Shown: piece after piece, positions 52,064 to 64,000 of the stretch
How the letters are laid out: each line of letters starts with the position of its first letter
Numbering within the stretch: the first letter of the stretch is position 1
Assembly: GCA_965242485.1 (NCBI GenBank)
Contig: CBDESM010000003.1
Span: forward strand, 1,549,362 to 1,613,361
DNA from: Dehalococcoidia bacterium
Lineage (GTDB): Bacteria > Chloroflexota > Dehalococcoidia > Bin125
Length of the DNA: 64,000 bases
Direction of reading: 5' to 3'
Notes under the pieces: generated by a model
The model's database searches: none
What the model was told of the DNA's origin: nothing
Seen by the model: only the letters and a program-made list of their open reading frames with translations
Program-made: the position numbers and the translations under genes

Positions 52064-53047
52064 ATGCAGCCCGAGATCAAGCAGTTCCTGACCTACCTCA
52101 CGACCGAGAAGGGCGCGTCCGCGCACACCATCTCGGCCTATCGCAACGACCTCAACCAGTTCCGCACCTTCTGCGCGGACCAGTCGCGCGGCCTCGTCGC
52201 CGCCTCCGCCGGCAACGGCGCGAACGGGAACGGCCGCAACGGGCACGCCAACGGCAACGGGGCCGCCAAGTCCTGCGACAGCGTCGACGCCGTCGACGCC
52301 AACATGCTCACCGCCTACGTCGCCCACCTGCGCGAGCAGGGCTACGCCCAGGCCACCGTCGCCCGCAAGGTCGCCGCGGTCAAGAGCTTCTTCGGCTACC
52401 TCTCGGCCGAGGAACTGGTCGCCGCCAACCCGGCCCGCGAGATGCCCGCCCCCCGCGTCGGCCGCTCGCTGCCGCGCGCGCTCTCGATCGACGAGGTGGA
52501 CGCGCTGCTCGAACAGCCCGGCCGCAAGGACACCCCGGAGGCGCAGCGCGACCGCGCGATGCTCGAGCTGCTCTACGCGACCGGCGTCCGCGTCTCCGAG
52601 TTCGTCAACCTCGACCTGACCTCGGTCGAGCTGCGCAACGGCTCCGCCTCCGTCCGCTGCATCGGCAAGGGCGACAAGGAGCGGCTGATCCCGATCCACG
52701 ACGCCGCCGTCTCGGCGCTCTGCACCTACCTCGAACAATCGCGCCCCAAGCTGGCGCGGCGGCGCGGCGAGCGGGCCCTCTTCGTCAACCGTCGCGGCGA
52801 GCGCCTCACCCGCCAGGGCATCTGGCTGATCCTCAAGAACTACGCCAAGGAAGCCGGCATCGACGACGTCACCCCGCACACCCTGCGCCACTCCTTCGCC
52901 ACCCACATGCTGCGCGGCCGCGCGCCCCTGCGCAGCGTCCAGGAGCTGATGGGCCACGCCAACATCTCGACCACGCAGATCTACACGCAGCTCACCGACG
53001 ACCACATCCGCGAGGTCTACGACCACGCCCACCCGCGCGCCAGCTGA
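52064..53047 (+). CDS. xerD: Tyrosine recombinase XerC/XerD
   Basis: SAM-like N domain; catalytic R..HxxR..Y (TPHTLRHSFATHML ... STTQIYT). Confidence 0.8.
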   Translation: MQPEIKQFLTYLTTEKGASAHTISAYRNDLNQFRTFCADQSRGLVAASAGNGANGNGRNGHANGNGAAKSCDSVDAVDANMLTAYVAHLREQGYAQATVARKVAAVKSFFGYLSAEELVAANPAREMPAPRVGRSLPRALSIDEVDALLEQPGRKDTPEAQRDRAMLELLYATGVRVSEFVNLDLTSVELRNGSASVRCIGKGDKERLIPIHDAAVSALCTYLEQSRPKLARRRGERALFVNRRGERLTRQGIWLILKNYAKEAGIDDVTPHTLRHSFATHMLRGRAPLRSVQELMGHANISTTQIYTQLTDDHIREVYDHAHPRAS

Positions 53048-55034: not shown

Positions 55035-55111
55035 TGGCGCGCCCGGCAGGACTTGAACCTGCGGCCTCTGCCTCCGCAGGGCAGCGCTCTAATCCGCTGA
55101 GCTACGGGCGC
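55035..55111 (-). tRNA. tRNA-Arg (anticodon reads GCG)
   Basis: Cloverleaf; anticodon loop CTGCGGA; T-loop GGTTCAAGTCC. Confidence 0.7.
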
Positions 55112-55153
55112 GGGTCGCGTCGCGGCCGCGGGGGCCGCGCTGCGGGTGATGGA

Positions 55154-55240
<87 letters not shown>

Positions 55241-55319
55241 ACGCGGCTCGGCGCGCCATGCGCGCCGCTGCTCCTCGCTTTCGGCGGCGCCCCGCCGGGC
55301 GTCCGCAACGTTGGGCGGC

Positions 55320-55397
55320 TGGTGGGCGATGCAGGACTTGAACCTGCGGCCTCTCGGATGTGAACCGAACGCTCTAGCCAGCTGAGCTAATCGCCCC
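55320..55397 (-). tRNA. tRNA-Val (anticodon CAC)
   Basis: Anticodon loop TTCACAT; T-loop GGTTCAAGTCC. Confidence 0.8.
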
Positions 55398-55432
55398 CTT
55401 GGTTCGGCAACGCCGCCCGGCGCTTCGCGGCG

Positions 55433-55508
55433 GTGGTAGCAGCGGCAGGACTCGAACCTGCGACACGGGGCTTATGAGTCCCCTGCTCTGCCAACTGAGC
55501 TACGCTGC
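55433..55508 (-). tRNA. tRNA-Met (anticodon CAT)
   Basis: Anticodon loop CTCATAA; T-loop GGTTCGAGTCC; G1.U72 wobble. Confidence 0.7.
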
Positions 55509-55707
55509 CGCGCCTCACGGCCGGCGGGCCCGCGCGGCGGCGCCCGCCTCCCGCAACGCTATCCGCATCGCCCCCGCTCGTCAAAGCGCTCCGCCGGACC
55601 CCGCCGGCGGGCGCGCAGCGCGGCCGTTCGCCTACGATCAGGTGCAGACAGGCAGAAGCGGCCCGCACCCGGCGCCGCGCCGGCCCGCGCAGGGGAGCGC
55701 GCGAACG

Positions 55708-56277
55708 ATGCCCGACTCGGAGCTGCTGCGGACCCTGCGCGGACGCCTGCTGGTCGCCGCGCCCTCGCTCGGCGACGCCAACTTCTTCCGCACCGTCATC
55801 CTCATGCTCGAACACCACGGCGGCACACTCGGCCTCGTCCTCAACCGCCCCTCCTCGATCACCATCGCCGAAGCCGCCCCCGATTGGGCTGCCCTCGTCG
55901 GACGCCCCGGCATGGTCTTCCAAGGCGGCCCGGTCGAGCGCACCTCCGCGATCGGCCTCGCCCGCTACGACCCGGACGCCGACCTCGATCCCGGCCTCGT
56001 CACCCCGCTGCACGGCGACGTCGGCATCGTCGACCTCGCCCGCGGTCCCGAAGGCGTCGCCGGCCGCGTCCGCGACATCCGCATCTTCTCCGGCTACGCC
56101 GGCTGGGCAGAAGGCCAGCTCGAGGGCGAGATCGAGGACGGCGGCTGGCTCGTGCTCGACGCCGCCACGTTCGATTCGCTCACCCCCGATACGGCCGCGC
56201 TCTGGCCCCGCGGCCTCTACCGCGCCTTCGCCAACGGCCCTTGGGACAACGCCGTCGTCTACCGCGGCGACAACTGA
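55708..56277 (+). CDS. YqgE/AlgH family protein (UPF0301)
   Basis: Conserved family sequence (LVAAPSLGDANFFRTVILMLEH). Confidence 0.75.
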   Translation: MPDSELLRTLRGRLLVAAPSLGDANFFRTVILMLEHHGGTLGLVLNRPSSITIAEAAPDWAALVGRPGMVFQGGPVERTSAIGLARYDPDADLDPGLVTPLHGDVGIVDLARGPEGVAGRVRDIRIFSGYAGWAEGQLEGEIEDGGWLVLDAATFDSLTPDTAALWPRGLYRAFANGPWDNAVVYRGDN

Positions 56278-56285
56278 GCGCGCGC

Positions 56286-57470
56286 ATGGAACTCCTCCGC
56301 AGCATCTCCCGCCGGCTCGACTCTTGGGTCCAGTTCACCGTCCTCCGCCGTCCGCGCAACGTCCGCGAAGCCGCCAACCGCGCGCTGATCCTCGCCCTCG
56401 TCGTGCTCGCCGCCGTCTCGCCCGTCTTCATCAGCTCCGACCCCGGCGACGTCGACCAGGGCGCTTCCGACGAGTTCGCCGCGCTGCAAGCAGAGCTGGC
56501 GGAGGCCCGCGCCGACCTCGAAGCGCTGGACGGCGGCACGGCCGCGGCCGCCGACTTGCGCGAACGCATCGCCGAACTCGAAGACGCGACCCGGCTCGGC
56601 TACATCGAACGCGACGGGGACGCCGCCCGTCGCAACGCCCTCGCGCCCGACTTTCGCCTACTCGATCTCGAAGGCGACCCCGTCCGCCTCGCCGACTTCG
56701 AGACGCCGGTCGTGCTCAACTTCTGGGCCTCTTGGTGCCAGCCCTGCATCCAGGAAATGCCCGACTTCCAGCGCCTCCACGAGCAGTACGGCGACCGCCT
56801 CGCCATGATCGGCGTCAACGATGGCGAAGACCTCGCCACCGCCGCCGAGTTCGCCGGACCCAACCGCACCGATGTCCGCTACCGCATCCTGATCGACCCC
56901 TCCAAGTCGCTCACCGACGGCCCCTACCGCCTGATCGGACGCCCCACCACCTACTACATCGACGCCGGCGGCATCATCCGCGACATCCGCGTCGGTGAAC
57001 ACGACCTCGAGACGATGCGCGAGCTCGCCGCCAACCTGCTCGGCGAAGAGCCCGCCGAACAATCGGCGGAAGAGGCGACCGGCGACTACCCCGCCGACGC
57101 CGCAACCCTGCTCGAATCGATCACCGCCAACTTCAACGCCGCCCAAGCCGAATTCGCCCGCGCCGCCGAGGACGCCGCCCTCTACGACGACCCAGCCTGG
57201 CGCCGCAACGCCGCCGCCCAAGCCGCCATCTGGCAGGAACGCATCGACCGCTGGCGCGAGCTGGAACCGCCGACGCAATACGCCGACCTCCACACCGCAG
57301 TGAACCGCCCCCTCAACGTCATCCGCATCGCCGCCGACCTCCTCACCCAAGCCCTGACCGCCCAAGACCAGCCCGCCACAGAAACCGCCATCCAGACCTT
57401 CCAAACCGCCCTCTCCGACTACACCGGAGCAGCCGACGACCTCTCCGACGTCCTAGAAGCCGCGCAATGA
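56286..57470 (+). CDS. TlpA/ResA-like thiol-disulfide oxidoreductase with N-terminal TM anchor and long C-terminal helical extension
   Basis: Thioredoxin fold with WASWCQPC (CxxC) motif; signal-anchor helix. Confidence 0.65.
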   Translation: MELLRSISRRLDSWVQFTVLRRPRNVREAANRALILALVVLAAVSPVFISSDPGDVDQGASDEFAALQAELAEARADLEALDGGTAAAADLRERIAELEDATRLGYIERDGDAARRNALAPDFRLLDLEGDPVRLADFETPVVLNFWASWCQPCIQEMPDFQRLHEQYGDRLAMIGVNDGEDLATAAEFAGPNRTDVRYRILIDPSKSLTDGPYRLIGRPTTYYIDAGGIIRDIRVGEHDLETMRELAANLLGEEPAEQSAEEATGDYPADAATLLESITANFNAAQAEFARAAEDAALYDDPAWRRNAAAQAAIWQERIDRWRELEPPTQYADLHTAVNRPLNVIRIAADLLTQALTAQDQPATETAIQTFQTALSDYTGAADDLSDVLEAAQ

Positions 57471-57502
57471 GTCGCGCGAATGGCGAGTAGGCTGCCCCAA
57501 AC

Positions 57503-57578
57503 GGGCGATTAGCTCAGCGGCCAGAGCGTCCGGTTTACACCCGGAAGGCCGGAGGTTCGACCCCTCCATCGCCCACCA
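57503..57578 (+). tRNA. tRNA-Val (anticodon TAC)
   Basis: Cloverleaf; anticodon loop TTTACAC; T-loop GGTTCGACCCC; CCA encoded. Confidence 0.85.
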
Positions 57579-57638
57579 AGCCGACGATTCTTGACGAGAG
57601 ATCGCGCATACCCGTAGCCTCTCCAGCGCTCAGGAGAC

Positions 57639-58286
57639 GTGGCGATGACCCGCTCGACACCGCCAATCACTTGGACTCAGGCGCTTGGTGCGCCAACCCC
57701 AAGCGCATCGCTGCTCGGTATGCGAAAAGGTGATGTGGTGAAGGGCTGCGTCTGCGAAGTACGGAGTGCCTCGGTCAATGTGAGATTGATGAACGGGGAA
57801 TATGGCTGGGCACACGACCTAGGACTTGGGCTCGATGGTGACGAGCAGCCACAGGACCGATACCGCGAGGGAGATTTGGTATCTGCGGAGGTGACCGGTC
57901 TCGATCGTGGCAATGAGTGCGTCACGTTGTCGATTCGCTGGCACGTGCCCAACCCTTATCAATGGCTGTCGCCAGCGTCTACGGCTTCCAGATATCCTGC
58001 TCCGCAGCTGAATGGGATGCAATCCGGCTCTTGGTTGTATGCGTCCATCCGAGAAGTGCGGGAGACCGGGCTGCGCGTAGTTGCGCAGAATGTGCCCGGT
58101 TGGATTGATCGTCGGGATGCCGGCATCTCGGAGGAGGCCGCCGTTGCTGACTACCACCGAACTGGCGGGGCCATATGGGTGCGGGTGACTGGCGTGAATC
58201 ATGTCGGTGGGGAATTCACTGCGCGGGCGGTTTCGCCACCGTCCCCCCAGCCAGTCGCCGGCCGTTGGTACGAAGCTATCCGTTAG
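57639..58286 (+). CDS. Small protein with two S1-like OB-fold domains; paralog of the repeat unit of the large S1-Schlafen protein
   Basis: Lower GC than its neighbours; [16 protein letters not shown] resembles [16 protein letters not shown] of the large-protein repeats. Confidence 0.5.
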
Positions 58287-58305
58287 CCGTGGCGAGGAGT
58301 TGCGC

Positions 58306-59989
58306 GATGACCGCTGAAGAACAGCTGGCGAGCTGGCGCGAGGGGACCTATGGGAAGGCGGTCTCGCGGTTTCCGGAGCGGCGGGGGGAGTTCCGGCGCT
58401 CTTCGGGGGGGGCGCTGGAGCCCGTCTATGTGGGGGGGGACGGGGATGGGGTGCCGTTGCCGGGGGAGTTCCCGTATACGCGGGGGATTCAGCCGACCAT
58501 GTACAGGGGGCGGCTGTGGACGATGCGGCAGTACGCGGGGCAGGAGGATGCGGAGGCCTCGAACCGGCGCTACCGCTTCCTGCTCGAGCAGGGGCAGACG
58601 GGGCTCTCCGTCGCCTTCGACCTGCCGACGCAGATCGGCTACGACTCCGACGCGCCGATGGCCGAGGGCGAGGTGGGCAAGGTCGGCGTCGCGATTGATT
58701 CCATCGACGACATGCGGACGCTGTTCGACCAGATCCCGCTCGACCGGGTGACGACCTCGATGACGATCAACGCGACCGCGGCGATCCTGCTCTCGCTCTA
58801 CGCCGCCGTCGGCGAGGAGCAGGGCGTGGCGCTGGACAAGATCGGCGGCACGGTCCAGAACGACATCCTCAAGGAATACGTCGCGCGCGGCACCTACATC
58901 TACCCGCCCGCGCCCTCAATGCGGCTGATCACGGACACCTTCGCCTACTGCACTGAGAACGTGCCGCGCTGGAACACGATCTCGATCTCCGGCTACCACA
59001 TGCGCGAGGCCGGCTGCACGGCCGCGCAGGAGATCGGCTTCACGCTGGCCAACGCCATCGCCTACGTCGAGGCCGCGCAGGCCGCCGGGCTCGCCTTCGA
59101 CGACTTCGGCCCGCGCCTCTCCTTCTTCTTCGCCTGCCACTCCAATTTCCTCGAGGAGGTCGCCAAGTTCCGCGCCGCCCGCCGGCTCTGGGCGACCATC
59201 GCCCGCGACCGCTTCGGCTCAGCCAACGAGCGCGCCCAGATGCTGCGCTTCCACACCCAGACCGGCGGCGTCACCCTGACCGCGCAGCAGCCCGACAACA
59301 ACGTGATCCGCACGGCCCTGCAAGCGCTCGCCGCGGTGCTCGGCGGCACCCAATCGCTGCACACCAACTCGCTCGACGAAGCGCTCGGCCTGCCCTCCGA
59401 GCACGCCGTCGAGATCGCCCTCCGCACCCAGCAGGTGATCGGCTACGAAAGCGGCGTCGCCGACGTGATCGACCCGCTCGGCGGCTCCCACTACATCGAG
59501 CAGACCACCGACCAGCTCGAGGACGAAGCCCGCCGCATCATCGACCAGGTCGACGCCCTCGGCGGCGCCGTCTCCGCCATCGAAGACGGCTTCCAGCAGT
59601 CCGAAATCCTGGCCGCCGCCACCGAGTTCCAGCACGAAGTCGAGACCGAAGTCGAAGCCGCCCGCGCCGGCGACGGCTCCGCCGGCGCCAAAGGCCGCGT
59701 CATTGTAGGCGTCAACCGCTTCCAGACCGAAGAACCCACCGACGTGGAGATCGTCCGCGTGGACCCCAGCGTCCGCGAACGCCAAACCGAAAAACTCGCC
59801 CGCCTCCGCGACGCCCGCGACGAAGCCGCAGTCCGCGCCGCCCTCGACCAGATCTCCCAAGCCGCCGCCGGCGACGAAAACCTGCTCCCCCTGATGCTCA
59901 ACGCCGTCAAAACCTCCGCCACCCTAGGCGAAATCTCCAACGCCCTCCGCCAAGTCTGGGGCGAATACCGCGAACGCATCGTGGTCTAG
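58306..59989 (+). CDS. Methylmalonyl-CoA mutase family protein, substrate-binding (N-terminal TIM-barrel) domain only
   Basis: MCM large-subunit catalytic-domain sequence ([20 protein letters not shown]); no B12-binding domain in this ORF. Confidence 0.8.
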
Positions 59990-62643
59990 CGATCCTCGTC
60001 CTCAACGGCAGCACGCTGGTTGCGCTTCACCAAATGATCACGGATTGCCTCGCGGGTATGGAGTCGCTCGGTGCTATCTCCTTTGCGGGCATAGAATTCT
60101 GATTTGCCCTTCACGATCCAGTTTGCCCCGGATTCGGGGCCCGGATCACAGCTGACGATCAACAGGGTTTTACCACGGATAGTCACTGTTTCCCAAACAA
60201 CAAGCGTCACGATGTCAAAATCTTCCAAAGGGTTGCCTGAATGAATATTCTGCAGATTACTGTGAAGGATCTGATTCGCGCTATCAATCTTCTTATCGAT
60301 AGTATCACCTGCCAAACCTTGATCTGCTTCAAGGCCGACCACATCTCGGTTGCTGTCTTCAATGCCGATGATCAGCCGACCTCCATCTGTGTTGAGAAAA
60401 CCGACGACTGTGCGAATCGCCTCGCGAGTCATTTCACGTGTATCGTCAGCTGATTCATCTCCTTTCAAGACCGCTTTGAATTCTAGCGTTTGCGATTCTG
60501 ATTCTCCAATCAGTGCCTCAAGCCACTGGTCGCGGTGTTCGGCAGTGATATGGTGGTTGTCATAGTCAATGCTGGTTACACGAATCGGGATAGTTTCTCC
60601 GATCCGATCGCGACGGGATCTGCTGGGCTTGTCAGATTCGGGGATATGTTCAGGAGAGATTATGGCCAGCAGCCCAGAACCGAGGTCAACTTGGGCTGCC
60701 CTTGAGCTGACCGTGCGCAGTTCTGCATTGACCTCGCTACCAACTTCAAACTTTGCCACGAGATCCTGCCAGCGAGCATCAAAATCCTTTAGCGAGACGA
60801 TTGCGGAACCTCCCTCGGGGTCAACAGATTCGATGACGACACCAAGAGGGTGGTTGGCCTTGAAAGACATAAACTCGGCTGCATCAGCCGGGCTAAATTC
60901 TTCTTCCCGAATATATCCTGTGATCGGACCAAGATCGACCGCGACACGTTGTTCATCATCTGGCATCGCAGCCTCAGGGATGACCACAGCATTAGACACG
61001 AGCACCCCATCTGCGAATTGTGCGACATAGTCTTTCCAATCGCCTATAGCACGGCGATGCGATAACCGGTTGGCCAAGCCATCATCACCGATATCAAGTA
61101 CGACGACATCGATCTCCGAATTGGATTCGAAACGAAATTGCCGTTCAACAAAGCAATCTAGCTCATGATTAGGAATGAAAACATTCGTACTCGCAACAAG
61201 GACGTTGATGCCACCGATTCGGCTACCTCGCACTACAGCTTTGATCGTCGCGCCCACGGCGTGGGCCTTGAGCTCGGCTGCTCGTGATTGATTGCTGAGA
61301 ATAATCATGCGACTCTCACGGTCGATCTGCCAGACGAACAGGTTCTGCACAATGTCCCTGGTTTTGTAGAGGTCCGTTGCCATTTCACCTGTTGGCACCG
61401 GCCATTCGCCTGCGGGGACAACGCCGATCACACCATTGATGTCTACCCAGAGCGAATTGGGTAGCACATCCGTGGCTGTGCCTGAGACGCCGACACCGAC
61501 ATAGAGCTTATCAAGCGTGTCAAGGTAGCCAGGCATGTTGCGACGGATGGAGAGTCCGAGATGACGAGAGTCCCGGTCGATCCACCAGACGAACAGGCCC
61601 TGCACTGTGTCGCCTGTCTTGTAGAGGTCTGTGGCCATCTCGCCGGTTGGCAGTGGCCATTCTCCTGTAGGGACGGCACCAATCACGCCATCAATGTCTA
61701 GCCAGAGCGTGTCGGGCAACACTGCCATGGCGGTGCCGGAAACGATGTCGCCGACATGGTACTTGTCAAACGCATCAAGGTAGCCAGGTACATTGCGACG
61801 GATAGAGAGTCTAAGTTCCCGAGAGTTGCGGTCGGTCTGCCAGACAAACAAGTCCTGCACTGTATCACCTGTTTTGTAGAGATCTGTAGCCATCTCACCG
61901 GTTGGCAGCGGCCATTCTGCTATAGGAACGAAGCTGATTACGCCATTGACGTCCAACCAGAGCTCGTCAGGTAGCACTGTTGTGGCGGTGCCGGAGACGA
62001 CGTCGCCGACGCGGTGCTTGTCAAGTACATCAAGGTAGCCGGGCGCATTGCGACGGATAGAGAGTCCGAGTTCCCGAGAGTTGCGGTCGATCCGCCAGAC
62101 GAACAGGTCCTGCACAGTGTCACCGGCCTCGTAGAGGTCGGTTGCCATTTCGCCTGTAGGCAGCGGCCATTCGGCTGTGGGGACAAAGCCGATCACGCCA
62201 TCAATGTCCAGCCAGAGCGTACTTGGCAGCACCGCCATGACGGTGCCGGAGACGACATTGCCGACACGGTGCTTGTCAAACGCATTGAGGTAACCGGGCG
62301 CATTGCGGCGAATGGAGAGTCCGAGATGGCGCTCCTCACGGTCGATCCGCCAGACGAACAGGTCCTGTACAGTGTCACCGGCCTTGTAGAGGTCGGTTGC
62401 CATTTCGCCTGTAGGCAGCGGCCATTCGGCTGTGGGGACAAAGCCGATCACGCCATTGATGTCCACCCAGAGCTCGTCAGGCAGCACCTCAGTGACAAGG
62501 CCAGTGACGTTGTCGCCGACATGGAGTTGCCCGAGCCGATCGTTGGTTATCGGGGAGGGAGGGCGAGCAGTCATTCCCCTATCACGTGATGGGCGCGGCA
62601 ACTTCTGGGGCGGCTTCCGGCGGGACTTCTTGGGCTTGGGCAT
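59986..62643 (-). CDS. Multi-S1-repeat protein with C-terminal Schlafen/AlbA_2 domain (putative RNA-sensing defence or stress protein)
   Basis: Lower-GC gene; about 8 S1-like OB repeats, 5 of them near-identical 74-aa units; C-terminus [11 protein letters not shown] ... [31 protein letters not shown] matches the AlbA_2/Schlafen N-terminal domain; start at MPKPKK. Confidence 0.7.
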
Positions 62644-62697
62644 GGTGGGGAGTTTAGGGCATGTCGTAGACTGCGCTGCCGTAGAGGAGGGTCGGTC

Positions 62698-63516
62698 ATG
62701 GCATTGACGCGGATTCATCACATTGGGGTGGCGGTGCGGGATGCGGATGCTGCCGCGGCTGTTTGGGCTGAGGCGTTCGGGCTTTCTGTGGCGCTGGATG
62801 CGGAGCTGGAGGAGCAAGGGGTGCGGGGGGTGATCTTGCCGTTGGACAACTGCGAGATCGAGCTGCTGCAGCCGACGCGGGAGGGGACGGGGATCGCGAA
62901 GTACTTGGAGGCGAACGGGGAGGGGTTCCATCACGTCTGCTTCGAGTCGACCGATGTGGCGGGGGATTTGCGGGCGGCGGCGGACTCGGGGATGCAGATG
63001 ATCGACCGGGAGCCGCGGGTGGGGCTGACGGGGATGATCGGGTTCATCCATCCGCGCGAGAATCACGGGGTGCTGGTCGAGTACGCGCAGCCGCCGGAGG
63101 ATGCGCCGCGGCACGGCGGGCCGGCGGGGGACGACGCGGCGCACGCGCTGCACCACATGACCGTCGCGGTGCACGACGTGGCGGCCGTGGCGGCTGAGTT
63201 CGCGGGCAAGTTCGGGTTCGAGGGGCGGGAGCCGTTCGAGAACGCGGGGCTGGGGATCGCGGGGCAGTTCACGGATTTGGGGCCGACGGCGATCGAGCTG
63301 ATCACGGGGCTGCCAGGAGCGGCGGAGGGGCCGTTGCAGAAGCGGCTGGCGAATCAGGGCGAGGGGATGTTCATGATGGCGCTGACGGTGCGCGACGCGG
63401 AGGCGGCGGTGGCGCGGCTGCGCGGGCACGGGATGACCGTGACGGACGCGGGCGCGGGCGCCTTCATCTCCCCCCGCGGCACGTTCGGCGCGCGGGTGCG
63501 GCTCTCTGAGGCCTGA
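62698..63516 (+). CDS. Tandem VOC (glyoxalase-fold) protein, likely methylmalonyl-CoA epimerase
   Basis: Two VOC modules (HHIGVAVRD ... HHMTVAVHD); genomic association with the mutase-family gene. Confidence 0.65.
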   Translation: MALTRIHHIGVAVRDADAAAAVWAEAFGLSVALDAELEEQGVRGVILPLDNCEIELLQPTREGTGIAKYLEANGEGFHHVCFESTDVAGDLRAAADSGMQMIDREPRVGLTGMIGFIHPRENHGVLVEYAQPPEDAPRHGGPAGDDAAHALHHMTVAVHDVAAVAAEFAGKFGFEGREPFENAGLGIAGQFTDLGPTAIELITGLPGAAEGPLQKRLANQGEGMFMMALTVRDAEAAVARLRGHGMTVTDAGAGAFISPRGTFGARVRLSEA

Positions 63517-63545: not shown

Positions 63546-64000
63546 ATGATCGACTTGTCTATTGGCGCCCGGGCGTTGTCGGCGCTGAAGATCCGCAGGC
63601 CGGTTCGGCTGTGGGCAGCAGTTCTCGCGGGTTTGGCGGCGCTGTTGCTGCTCGGCGGCACGGCGCTGGGGCAGGAGGCCGCGGGCGGCGAGACGGGGCG
63701 GCCGGAGGTGCTCCAGTTCTCGGCGGAGATCAGCGACCTCAACTCGCTGATCGCTTGGGTCACGGTGAGTTTGAGCGATGAGGCGCGGGTGCAGATCGAG
63801 TACCGCAACGGGGGCGCGGGGCGCTTCCGGACGCGGCTGAGCGAGCCGGCGGTGCACCATTACCTGCCGGTCGTGCGGCTGCGGGCGGAGACGACGTATG
63901 AGTACGTCATCGGCGTGGAAGGGGCCGACGGGGAGATCGCGTTCGATGCGGACGATGCGGGGGAGTTCACGACCAGGCCGTTGCCGGAGATCATGCGGAG
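63546..64000 (+). CDS. Secreted/anchored hypothetical protein, N-terminal part (runs off the window)
   Basis: Signal-peptide-like hydrophobic N-terminus; open to the window end. Confidence 0.4.
   Translation, partial: MIDLSIGARALSALKIRRPVRLWAAVLAGLAALLLLGGTALGQEAAGGETGRPEVLQFSAEISDLNSLIAWVTVSLSDEARVQIEYRNGGAGRFRTRLSEPAVHHYLPVVRLRAETTYEYVIGVEGADGEIAFDADDAGEFTTRPLPEIMR

What the first reader, a model, noticed from the sequence alone, without database searches (positions are those of the whole stretch)
57503..58286. Small 2xS1 protein, paralogous to the big protein's repeat unit, inserted directly downstream of tRNA-Val(TAC)
A 215-aa ORF with two S1-like OB domains and lower GC sits 60 bp after tRNA-Val, a classic island insertion point. 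Its S1 units share the LSIR(R/W)xxPxxYxxL signature with the repeats of the S1-Schlafen protein 2 kb away on the other side of the mutase-family gene. The two may be components of one system (sensor plus effector, or decoy), or the small gene may be the source of the repeat amplification.
Basis: partly seen in the sequence, partly recalled or inferred. Interest (0 to 1): 0.55.

Follow-up and report, generated by a model that had tools for sequence, protein, structure and literature searches.

The report
Strain-variable tandem-S1 gene in defence hotspot
The small gene after tRNA-Val is real and encodes a rare protein with two S1 RNA-binding domains in a slot that closely related strains fill with phage-defence genes, but it is not a specific copy of, or obligate partner for, the nearby S1-Schlafen protein.

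Summary
tRNA-Val(TAC) lies at 57503-57578. A conserved ORF follows 60 bp later (57639-58286; likely true start ATG 57645, 213 aa). It encodes two S1/OB domains and has GC3 0.63 against about 0.9 in its neighbours.

Domain 1 resembles the big protein's repeats at 30-36% identity, which is weaker than its match to unrelated ribosomal-S1-type domains. Domain 2 does not match the repeats significantly. The 'signature' is the generic S1 strand-5 motif, out of register by one residue, and is not conserved in orthologues. There is no tRNA-derived att repeat and no integrase.

The slot between tRNA-Val and the mutase gene is nevertheless a genuine variable hotspot. In strains with 96-97% identical flanks it holds:
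- a 52%-identical allele of the small gene;
- a CapH/CapP-BilABD defence system;
- or another Schlafen gene.

Co-occurrence breaks both ways. Two strains have S1-Schlafen without the small gene. One strain has the small gene next to a decayed Schlafen remnant.

Best reading: an independent, lineage-restricted accessory RNA-binding gene carried as hotspot cargo in uncultured Dehalococcoidia-like bacteria. Its function is unknown and possibly related to phage-host conflict. Interest is moderate.

The parts
57503..57578 (+). tRNA-Val(TAC). It is the conserved left flank of the variable slot and is identical in the near-isogenic locus L091.
   Evidence: ARAGORN; Rfam tRNA, 69 bits; identical sequence in L091.
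57591..57620 (+). Candidate promoter of the small gene: TTGACG (57591-57596), an 18-nt spacer, then TAGCCT (57615-57620). Both elements are conserved in all loci that carry the small gene and absent from L091.
   Evidence: Junction sequences of seven loci and sequence reading. The consensus promoter scan did not flag it, so promoter function is inferred.
57632..57636 (+). Shine-Dalgarno-like AGGAG, 8 nt upstream of ATG 57645.
   Evidence: Sequence.
57645..58286 (+). Coding sequence of the small tandem-S1 protein (213 aa from the ATG; the mechanical ORF starts at GTG 57639, giving 215 aa). GC3 is 0.63.
   Evidence: Purifying selection, dN/dS 0.27-0.47.
57735..57947 (+). S1 domain 1 (aa 33-103 in the 215-aa numbering).
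   Evidence: Pfam S1, 26 bits over aa 29-100; AF2 strands E33-41, 45-50, 55-59, 80-89, 94-103; Foldseek.
58032..58229 (+). S1 domain 2 (aa 132-197). It is divergent and missed by Pfam.
   Evidence: AF2 strands E132-141, 144-149, 152-157, 178-187, 192-197. hhalign domain 2 vs generic S1 set, 96.7% probability; domain 1 vs domain 2, 97.5%. The rpsA model aligns across both domains.
57579..58306 (+). Slot A, the hypervariable replaceable segment between the tRNA 3' end and the mutase start. Identity to near-isogenic strains falls from 90-99% to 43-76% (L089), or the segment is replaced by a 3.6-kb Bil cassette (L091).
58307..59989 (+). Methylmalonyl-CoA mutase large-subunit gene. It is the conserved right flank of slot A, 20 bp after the small gene's stop.
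   Evidence: Pfam MM_CoA_mutase, E 2e-214; 90-97% nt identity among relatives.
59986..62568 (-). Context only: the S1-repeat-Schlafen (AlbA_2) gene in slot B between mutase and epimerase. It carries five 85-aa S1 repeats (255-bp tandem repeat, 61319-62487) and the ESQTLEFK nuclease motif. GC3 is 0.59.
   Evidence: The motif definition comes from PMC13056530.

Best explanation
The small gene encodes a stand-alone protein of two tandem S1 (OB-fold) domains. It has a disordered N-terminus, a linker, and a conserved C-terminal tail (PxPVAGxWxExIR). The family is confined to one lineage of uncultured, high-GC Chloroflexota (Dehalococcoidia-like) bacteria.

The gene is accessory cargo of a hypervariable slot bounded by tRNA-Val(TAC) and the methylmalonyl-CoA mutase gene. 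It is not a core gene and not a classic integrase-borne island.

Shown:
- In strains whose flanks are 96-97% identical, the slot holds deeply divergent alleles of this gene (about 52% aa), a CapH/CapP-BilABD defence system, or another Schlafen-domain gene.
- All alleles keep a low GC3.
- All alleles keep their own conserved promoter-like element.
- Selection on the coding sequence is purifying.

Inferred:
- Cargo is exchanged by homologous recombination through the conserved flanks.
- The protein binds single-stranded RNA through its two S1 domains.
- It acts on its own in a phage-host-conflict or RNA-regulatory role, for example by sequestering or sensing RNA. It does not act as a dedicated subunit of the neighbouring S1-Schlafen nuclease.

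Its similarity to that nuclease's repeats is the generic similarity of S1 domains. The tandem pair looks more like two consecutive ribosomal-protein-S1 domains.
For: - Fold: the AF2 model has two OB barrels. Foldseek's top hits are bS1 two-domain fragments. Pfam S1 matches domain 1. The rpsA model aligns over aa 28-185.
- Real gene: 7 database homologues plus 2 found by tblastn, all 213-228 aa, 48 invariant columns, dN/dS 0.27-0.47.
- Rarity: no relatives in GTDB species genomes, JGI metagenomes or phage records.
- Fixed position: tRNA-Val(tac), then the small gene, then mutase, in L001, L002, L004, L005, L092 and L096; in L088 and L089, whose tRNAs were not scanned, the gene lies between AhpC and the mutase.
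- Hotspot: the identity profile has sharp edges. L091 has the slot replaced by capH/capP-like genes plus BilA, BilB and BilD (PADLOC E 2.5e-20, 1.5e-39, 1.5e-130). L097 carries an X-SLFN gene there. The distant relative L008 carries VapBC-like pairs there, named from reading the ORF translations only.
- Allele divergence uncoupled from flanks: between the window and L089, dS is 1.13 in the small gene against 0.11-0.16 in the flanks. The gene tree is discordant with the flank clades.
- GC3 is 0.63-0.68 in all three alleles measured.
- Conserved spacer elements.
- Independence from the big gene.
- Generic rather than specific similarity.
Against: - No function has been shown. PADLOC, PHROGs and NCBIfam give no informative family.
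- An S1-only protein has no obvious effector domain.
- Part of the excess dS may reflect weaker codon or GC3 constraint rather than ancient alleles.
- In five of the eight loci informative for both slots the small gene and the S1-Schlafen gene are both present, and in a sixth (L004) the big gene was once present. Both are low in GC and hypervariable, so a facultative functional link is not excluded.
- The canonical aromatic RNA-contact residues of strand 2 are not obvious in domain 1 (reading), so RNA binding is inferred from the fold only.
- Only about a dozen contigs, nearly all from one metagenome project (two, L093 and L096, come from other assemblies), support the population picture.
Confidence: 0.6

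Rival explanations
1. Facultative partner of the S1-Schlafen nuclease. The small tandem-S1 protein would modulate the neighbouring nuclease in trans, as a decoy or competitor for the activating RNA, an adaptor, or an immunity factor. The two variable genes flanking the mutase would then form one system.
For: - They lie about 1.7 kb apart and both use S1 domains.
- Both are low in GC3 (0.63 and 0.59) in a background of about 0.9.
- Both are hypervariable between near-identical strains.
- They co-occur in the window, L001, L002, L092 and L096.
- The small protein has a conserved disordered C-terminal tail that could be a docking motif.
Against: - L091 and L097 carry the S1-Schlafen gene with other cargo in place of the small gene. 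L091's big-protein allele is 75% identical to the window's.
- L004 keeps an intact small gene next to a decayed Schlafen remnant.
- S1-Schlafen paralogues at other loci lack a small gene.
- The two genes are on opposite strands with a housekeeping gene between them.
- There is no specific sequence relationship.
- Published bacterial Schlafens act as single fused sensor-effector proteins (PMC13056530).
Confidence: 0.13
2. Resident housekeeping RNA chaperone or regulator. The gene would be a native, lineage-specific gene co-transcribed with the mutase operon. It would evolve fast under relaxed constraint and simply be displaced when defence cargo inserts.
For: - It is the commonest state of the slot (at least 9 contigs) across three flank clades.
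- It lies on the same strand as the mutase, 20 bp upstream, with no terminator predicted.
- dN/dS is below 1.
Against: - GC3 stays at 0.63-0.68 in the three alleles measured against about 0.9 in neighbours.
- Synonymous divergence is about 9-fold above the flanks and unrelated to flank relatedness, with sharp boundaries.
- The gene is dispensable in L091 and L097.
- It is absent from the closest GTDB relative, which has other cargo at this position.
Confidence: 0.15
3. Recent paralogue, or the source, of the big protein's amplified repeat unit.
For: BLASTP gives 31-32% identity over 77-88 aa, E 8e-4 for the single comparison. Smith-Waterman z-scores of domain 1 against repeats 1-4 are 5.7-8.4.
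Against: - The same domain scores higher against unrelated bS1-type domains: z 11.5-25.9, and 41-55 bits against 26.9.
- Domain 2 is not significantly similar to the repeats (z 1.3-3.5; hhalign probability 29%).
- The repeats are 65-82% identical to each other and closer to generic S1 (hhalign 104) than to the small protein (41.7).
- There is no nucleotide similarity.
- Orthologous big genes in other strains have their own repeat arrays.
Confidence: 0.02
4. Classic integrase-mediated genomic island inserted into the 3' end of tRNA-Val.
For: The gene sits directly downstream of a tRNA, has lower GC, and is variable among strains.
Against: - No direct repeat of the tRNA 3' half of 11 nt or longer occurs downstream in the window or in L091. 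The single 10-mer is what chance predicts.
- The slot contains no integrase. The only tyrosine recombinase nearby is a syntenic XerC/D-type gene 4.5 kb upstream, conserved in all relatives.
- The segment is only 0.73 kb.
Confidence: 0.03

Closest known systems
Ribosomal protein bS1 (tandem S1 domains, e.g. D3-D4 / D5-D6 fragments; PDB 9gut_B, 7a05)
   Same: Both have two consecutive S1 OB folds joined by a short linker. bS1 gives the best structural matches (Foldseek E 5e-10 to 2e-9 over about 177 columns). It also gives the best sequence-family match (TIGR00717 positions 359-505 align to aa 28-185). Single bS1-like domains are the closest relatives of domain 1 outside the family.
   Different: The small protein has two domains rather than four to six. 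It scores 29.6 bits against an equivalog cutoff of 577. It is strain-variable, low in GC, and sits in a hotspot rather than being a core ribosomal gene.
Small stand-alone S1 proteins of Firmicutes (YabR / GSP13 / CvfD; CvfB, PDB 3go5)
   Same: These are short S1-only proteins without catalytic domains, thought to act as RNA-binding regulators or stress proteins (my own knowledge). GSP13 (2k4k), YabR (9a5a) and 3go5 appear among the fold matches.
   Different: Those proteins are conserved chromosomal genes with one S1 domain, or several S1 domains plus a winged helix. No specific sequence relationship was detected. They belong to a different phylum and show a different evolutionary behaviour.
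Prokaryotic Schlafen (pSlfn) antiphage tRNases fused to sensor domains (Nat Microbiol 2026, PMC13056530)
   Same: The neighbouring big gene fits this kind: SLFN_AlbA_2 domain, Ex4(E/D)xK motif (ESQTLEFK) and an N-terminal putative sensor array. The small gene shares only the S1 fold of that sensor array and the genomic neighbourhood.
   Different: The small protein has no Schlafen domain. pSlfns are described as single-gene sensor-effector fusions. S1 fusions are not named in that paper's main text. Co-occurrence with the small gene is not obligate.
Defence hotspots / defence islands bounded by conserved core genes or tRNAs
   Same: The flanks are conserved. Cargo is mutually exclusive between close strains and includes recognised defence systems (Bil with CapH/CapP, and Schlafen). 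Cargo is low in GC.
   Different: Here the commonest cargo is a single S1-only gene with no known defence role, and no mobility genes are present. The comparison with published hotspots rests on my own knowledge, not on a test.

Membership tests
S1 RNA-binding domain proteins (Pfam PF00575, OB fold) | Match to the S1 profile above the curated threshold. | tested here: met
   Domain 1 scores 26 bits against a cutoff of 22. Pfam misses domain 2, but hhalign gives 96.7% probability against a generic S1 set and 97.5% against domain 1.
S1 RNA-binding domain proteins (Pfam PF00575, OB fold) | Five-stranded antiparallel beta-barrel with a short helix between strands 3 and 4. | tested here: met
   The AF2 model shows this topology twice, with domain pLDDT about 85. 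Foldseek matches solved S1 domains with rmsd 1.6-2.8 A for single domains. This rests on a prediction from an 8-sequence alignment.
S1 RNA-binding domain proteins (Pfam PF00575, OB fold) | Binds single-stranded RNA. | not testable with these tools
   Requires EMSA, CLIP or similar experiments.
Ribosomal protein bS1 (rpsA) | Full-length equivalog match with four to six S1 domains. | tested here: not met
   TIGR00717 scores 29.6 bits against a cutoff of 577, and the protein has only two domains.
Paralogue of the neighbouring S1-Schlafen repeat unit | Closer to the repeat units than to generic S1 domains. | tested here: not met
   BLASTP gives 26.9 bits against the window's big protein and 41-55 bits against bS1-like proteins. 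HMM per-domain score is 11.7 bits against 30-44. hhalign gives 41.7 against 113. z-scores are 5.7-8.4 against 11.5-25.9.
Paralogue of the neighbouring S1-Schlafen repeat unit | Shared specific signature LSIR(R/W)xxPxxYxxL. | tested here: not met
   The pattern fits the small protein only. The repeats have a P-x-Y spacing. LS[ILVM][RK] occurs in 120 of 135 unrelated S1 proteins. The tail of the motif is not conserved in orthologues.
Two-gene system with the S1-Schlafen nuclease | Conserved co-occurrence and operon-like arrangement across genomes. | tested here: not met
   The big gene occurs without the small gene in L091, L097, L093, L094 and L095. The small gene occurs beside a decayed big gene in L004. 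The two are on opposite strands and separated by the mutase.
Two-gene system with the S1-Schlafen nuclease | Physical or functional interaction. | not testable with these tools
   No multimer prediction tool or experiment was available.
Integrase-mediated tRNA-targeting genomic island | Direct repeat of the tRNA 3' end (att) at the distal boundary. | tested here: not met
   No exact match of 11 nt or longer was found. The single 10-mer at 63700 equals the chance expectation of 0.5. L091 gives the same negative result.
Integrase-mediated tRNA-targeting genomic island | Integrase gene within the island. | tested here: not met
   The slot holds only the small gene. The nearby tyrosine recombinase (52064-53047) is syntenic in all relatives.
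Integrase-mediated tRNA-targeting genomic island | Variable presence between strains and deviant composition. | tested here: met
Defence-hotspot cargo | Alternative cargoes, including recognised defence systems, between the same conserved flanks. | tested here: met
   L091 carries capH/capP-like genes plus BilA, BilB and BilD. L097 carries a SLFN_AlbA_2 gene. Flanks are 96-97% identical.
Defence-hotspot cargo | The gene itself matches a known defence family or protects against phage. | tested here: not met
   PADLOC gives no hit and PHROGs nothing meaningful. Protection against phage cannot be tested here.

The most novel reading that the evidence does not exclude
The tandem-S1 protein is a new kind of minimal, effector-less phage-conflict factor. 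It would be an RNA-binding protein kept as deeply divergent alleles in a defence hotspot. It would either restrict phage by itself, by sequestering or occluding phage or tRNA-like RNA, or tune in trans the RNA-triggered S1-Schlafen tRNase on the other side of the mutase gene.
Probability: 0.2. Interest if true: 0.65.

Novelty: new member of a known kind. Interest (0 to 1): 0.4.

Why it matters
The attractive story does not hold. The small gene is not a seed, decoy or partner derived from the repeats of the S1-Schlafen protein, so it should not be annotated as part of that system.

What remains is still useful. In an uncultured Dehalococcoidia-like lineage, the mutase gene is bracketed by two fast-turnover slots that exchange Bil, Schlafen and S1-only cargo between strains 96-97% identical in their flanks. 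This is a compact natural experiment for finding new defence-associated genes in a phylum where almost none have been tested.

If the S1-only gene proves to act in immunity, it would add an RNA-binding protein without a catalytic domain to the defence repertoire. It would also give a handle on how S1-repeat Schlafens sense RNA.

Tried and rejected
- att-site search. The tRNA 3' half plus 12 nt was searched against everything downstream on both strands, in the window and in L091. Only chance-level 9- and 10-mers appeared.
- Consensus promoter and terminator scan of 57300-58500: nothing found.
- Rfam at a permissive threshold over 57000-63000: only the tRNA.
- PADLOC, PHROGs and NCBIfam on the small protein: no informative family.
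- Searches for relatives of the small family: GTDB species genomes, JGI metagenome contigs and phage records all returned none.
- Enrichment of S1-Schlafen proteins at the top of the whole-library profile search. At first this looked like support for paralogy. I rejected it for two reasons. Whole-sequence scores sum over many repeats, and per-domain scores are no better than for bS1. In addition, all three of the top hits whose contigs were traced (P0009, P0011, P0013) are from this or related metagenome samples, and two of them (P0009, P0013) are alleles of this very locus.
- Truncated relic of a second S1-Schlafen gene. This idea was prompted by L093, which has S1-Schlafen genes on both sides of the mutase region. 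I rejected it because only 20 bp lie between the stop codon and the mutase, there is no Schlafen remnant, there is no specific similarity, and selection is purifying.
- Split S1 + S1-SLFN gene calls in L093. I did not take these as evidence for a two-gene architecture. The contig name indicates 2x coverage, and its mutase is also broken.
- Covariation of small and big alleles. Only four loci have both genes, which is too few to test.
- Literature. No paper in the library combines 'S1 domain', 'Schlafen' and 'prokaryotic'. No supplements of PMC13056530 are held.
Full report
**What is there**

ARAGORN and Rfam place tRNA-Val(TAC) at 57503-57578 on the + strand. Exactly 60 bp later an ORF opens at GTG 57639 and ends at 58286, giving 215 aa. 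An AGGAG at 57632-57636 lies 8 nt before an in-frame ATG at 57645. The closest orthologue begins M-SRSTSP opposite M-TRSTPP. The real product is therefore probably 213 aa.

The mutase gene starts 20 bp after the stop codon (58307; Pfam MM_CoA_mutase, E 2e-214).

The ORF has GC 0.61 and GC3 0.63. Its neighbours have GC3 0.87-0.98 and the window averages GC 0.69.

The S1-repeat-Schlafen gene lies on the other side of the mutase, on the - strand (59986 to about 62568). It has GC3 0.59 and a 255-bp tandem repeat of 4.6 copies.

**Is it a real two-S1 protein?**

Pfam finds one S1 domain (aa 29-100, 26 bits, cutoff 22) and nothing for the second half.

An AlphaFold2 model built on eight family members has mean pLDDT 70, about 85 within the domains. 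It shows two five-stranded barrels with the S1 helix, at aa 33-103 and 132-197. The N-terminus, the linker and the tail are disordered.

Foldseek against the PDB returns two-domain fragments of ribosomal protein bS1 first (9gut_B, E 5e-10; 7a05, E 2e-9; about 177 aligned columns). NCBIfam's rpsA model aligns across both domains but far below its cutoff (29.6 bits against 577). Profile-profile comparison links domain 2 to domain 1 (97.5%) and to generic S1 domains (96.7%).

The ORF is intact in every relative found, at 213-228 aa with 48 invariant columns. Pairwise dN/dS is 0.27-0.47. The description 'small 2xS1 protein' is therefore correct.

**Is it a specific paralogue of the big protein's repeats?**

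It is not. BLASTP does align domain 1 to repeats 1-3 at 31-32% identity, with E 8e-4 to 0.017 for a single comparison. Several controls show this is generic S1 similarity.

- I compared five small-family proteins with 19 S1 proteins. The window's big protein was the weakest match every time it scored at all (25.8-28.1 bits). Unrelated bS1-like proteins scored 41-60 bits.
- HMMs of each small-protein domain give the window's repeats 11.7 and 7.0 bits. Ordinary S1 proteins get 30-44 bits.
- hhalign scores are: domain 1 vs repeats 41.7; domain 2 vs repeats 23.8 (29% probability); domain 1 vs a generic S1 set 113; repeats vs the same set 104. The generic set was chosen on domain-1 score, which favours domain 1. 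The repeats match it equally well even though they were not selected for.
- Smith-Waterman z-scores from shuffles are 5.7-8.4 for domain 1 vs repeats 1-4 and 1.3-3.5 for domain 2 vs the repeats. For domain 1 vs bS1-type domains they are 11.5-25.9.
- The repeats are 65-82% identical to one another.
- The small and big genes share no nucleotide similarity.

The proposed signature also fails.
- It matches the small protein, but the repeats read LSIRRxxPGYL, so the spacing is one residue off.
- LS[ILVM][RK] is present in 120 of 135 unrelated S1 proteins.
- The residues after LSI are not conserved in the small protein's own orthologues.

The whole-library profile search ranked S1-Schlafen proteins just after the family. 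This looked supportive at first. It reflects summed scores over many repeats. The three top hits whose contigs I traced came from this or related metagenome samples, and two of them (P0009, P0013) are alleles of the big gene at this very locus.

**Where else does the small gene occur?**

The 5.8-billion-protein collection holds only seven homologues, at 51-59% identity, all from metagenomes. tblastn on fetched loci found two more. Pattern scans of GTDB species genomes and JGI metagenome contigs found none, and the phage collection gave no match.

The closest GTDB genome by mutase identity (74%) is a Dehalococcoidia MAG. I infer that the window comes from a related, uncultured, high-GC Chloroflexota lineage.

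The small gene occupies the same position in every case where it is present. The order is AhpC/TSA-like gene, tRNA-Val(tac), small gene, mutase.

**The slot is a hotspot**

Flank similarity defines three clades: {window, L089, L091, L097}, {L001, L092} and {L096, L004}. Mutase nucleotide identity is 95-97% within clades and about 90% between them.

Window vs L089:
- Nucleotide identity is 90-99% up to and including the tRNA.
- It falls to 43-76% exactly over 57597-58300.
- It returns to 89-100% in the mutase.
- It falls again on entering the big gene.
- The two small proteins are 52% identical.
- dS is 1.13 in the small gene against 0.11-0.16 in the flanks.

Divergence of the small gene does not follow flank relatedness. 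The window's nearest allele, at 59%, sits in L088, whose AhpC belongs to the other deep allele group.

L091:
- The flanks are 90-99% identical to the window and the tRNA is identical.
- The 0.73-kb segment is replaced, from the last base of the tRNA to the mutase start, by a 3.6-kb cassette with GC 0.48-0.63.
- The cassette encodes a capH-like HTH, a capP-like HEXXH protein, BilA, BilB and BilD (PADLOC E 2.5e-20, 1.5e-39 and 1.5e-130).

L097:
- Its mutase is 97.3% identical to the window's.
- The gene upstream of the mutase is a partial protein of at least 275 aa with a Schlafen AlbA_2 domain (Pfam E 1.6e-17; motif EGDSVEFK).

L008, the distant GTDB relative:
- The same tRNA-to-mutase interval is 4.2 kb.
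- Reading the ORF translations, it contains what look like PIN/antitoxin (VapBC-type) pairs; no family search was run on them.

No tRNA-derived repeat and no integrase accompany any of these states. I infer that cargo is exchanged by homologous recombination through the conserved flanks rather than by site-specific integration.

All three small-gene alleles measured keep GC3 at 0.63-0.68. All small-gene loci share TTGACG-N18-TAGCCT in the spacer after the tRNA. I read this as the gene's own promoter. The consensus scanner did not flag it.

**Relation to the S1-Schlafen gene**

The big gene occupies a second variable slot between the mutase and the epimerase.
- Its alleles range from about 600 to 1476 aa.
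- Between strains with 96.7% identical flanks, the C-terminal halves can be only 37% identical.
- It carries ESQTLEFK, which fits the Ex4(E/D)xK motif reported for prokaryotic Schlafen antiphage tRNases (PMC13056530).

Co-occurrence with the small gene is frequent but not obligate.
- Both are present in the window, L001, L002, L092 and L096.
- L091 and L097 have the big gene without the small gene. L091's big allele is 75% identical to the window's.
- L004 has an intact small gene, 92% identical to L096's. Where the big gene should be, it has a 497-bp segment of 51% GC that translates into a stop-riddled Schlafen fragment.
- Further S1-Schlafen paralogues at other loci (L093, L094, L095) have no small gene nearby.

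The two genes are on opposite strands with a housekeeping gene between them. Published bacterial Schlafens are single-protein sensor-effector fusions. A dedicated two-gene system is therefore unlikely, though a facultative interaction cannot be excluded.

**Most likely explanation**

The small gene is an independent, lineage-restricted accessory gene. It encodes a tandem-S1 protein that probably binds single-stranded RNA. It is the commonest of several alternative cargoes in a recombination hotspot that otherwise holds recognised defence systems.

Shown:
- the fold (as a prediction);
- the coding constraint;
- the rarity of the family;
- the sharp hypervariable boundaries;
- the alternative cargoes;
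- the broken co-occurrence with the big gene;
- the generic nature of the similarity to the repeats.

Inferred:
- RNA binding;
- the promoter;
- recombination as the exchange mechanism;
- a role in phage-host conflict, which rests only on guilt by association.

One caveat applies to the excess synonymous divergence. Part of it may come from the weaker GC3 constraint in this gene rather than from ancient alleles. The lack of any relation to flank divergence argues for allele replacement.

**Verdict**

The gene does sit at an insertion or replacement point next to a tRNA. It is not a specific paralogue of the repeats, not their source, not a demonstrable partner of the Schlafen gene, and not a classic att/integrase island.

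It is a new member of a known kind (S1-domain proteins) in an interesting setting. Interest is moderate (0.4). The most novel reading still open is an effector-less RNA-binding immunity or Schlafen-tuning factor. I give that about a 20% chance.

Noticed in passing
window 59986-62568 (- strand); L001, L092, L096, L097, L091: The gene between mutase and epimerase combines an S1-repeat array with a Schlafen AlbA_2 domain carrying ESQTLEFK (Ex4ExK). Its size varies from about 600 to 1476 aa between strains. The C-terminal halves can be only 37% identical in strains whose flanks are 96.7% identical. No PADLOC hit. S1 fusions are not named in the main text of the 2026 bacterial Schlafen paper.
   Followed up: partly
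L004 12375-12871 (- strand): This strain lacks the S1-Schlafen gene. The 497-bp mutase-epimerase spacer (GC 0.51) translates into a Schlafen fragment with stop codons and an E-to-N change in the catalytic motif (SEPESQTLNFKEV). This is a recent decay of the big gene, while the small gene remains intact.
   Followed up: yes
L091 10543-14133 (slot between mutase and tRNA-Val): A near-isogenic strain carries capH-like HTH, capP-like HEXXH protease, BilA, BilB and BilD in place of the small S1 gene, at GC 0.48-0.63. No BilC (JAB) homologue was seen in the called or mechanical ORFs.
   Followed up: partly
L097 12170-12997 (- strand, runs off the contig end): Another strain of the window's clade has a different Schlafen-domain gene (motif EGDSVEFK; N-terminal part with IERHHLFP) directly upstream of the mutase. 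That strain therefore has Schlafen genes on both sides of the mutase.
   Followed up: partly
window 57591-57620 and the equivalent spacer in L001, L004, L089, L092, L096: The tRNA-to-small-gene spacer keeps TTGACGAG.GATC.CGC and TAGCCTC in all alleles, although the coding sequences are only 50-63% identical at the protein level. The non-coding leader is better conserved than the gene.
   Followed up: partly
window 57645-58286; L001 10001-10672; L004 10001-10672: GC3 of the small gene stays at 0.63-0.68 in the three alleles measured, in genomes whose other genes have GC3 near 0.9. Synonymous divergence is near saturation between alleles. What maintains the low GC is unexplained. Candidates are a separate gene pool, lack of GC-biased conversion in a non-recombining hypervariable gene, or selection.
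   Followed up: partly
window 56277-57470 (AhpC/TSA-redoxin-like gene, 397 aa) and orthologues: This neighbour also falls into two deep allele groups: 60-64% aa identity between groups and 78-99% within them. The mutase stays at 94-96% aa. The region left of the tRNA may therefore also be mosaic.
   Followed up: no
L093 (ERZ25068400, 2x-coverage contig): A more distant relative has S1-Schlafen genes on both sides of the mutase region, each called as a split S1 + S1-SLFN pair. It also has a CAP12-PCTIR TIR-domain gene nearby. The splits may be indel errors, since the contig's mutase is also truncated.
   Followed up: no
L094 7001-9076 and 14675-16076; L095 7001-9627: Further S1-repeat(-Schlafen) paralogues sit at unrelated loci in the same metagenomes, next to HNH and colicin-V-production genes. 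S1-Schlafen is therefore a multi-copy family in this lineage.
   Followed up: no
window 58230-58283 (aa 198-215 of the small protein): The C-terminal tail PxPVAGxWxExIR is conserved across otherwise divergent alleles but is modelled as disordered (pLDDT below 50). It is a candidate short docking motif.
   Followed up: no
window 55035-55509: A four-tRNA cluster (Arg-GCG, Leu-CAG, Val-CAC, Met-CAT) lies on the - strand between uvrC and the DUF179 gene. It is syntenic in all relatives examined.
   Followed up: no
window 59986-63429 (- strand): The mechanical 1147-aa ORF of the big gene runs about 860 bp upstream of the likely start (MTARPPSPI, about 62568). It overlaps the epimerase gene on the other strand (62698-63516). 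This is an artefact of high GC, not a longer protein. The true start was not verified.
   Followed up: no
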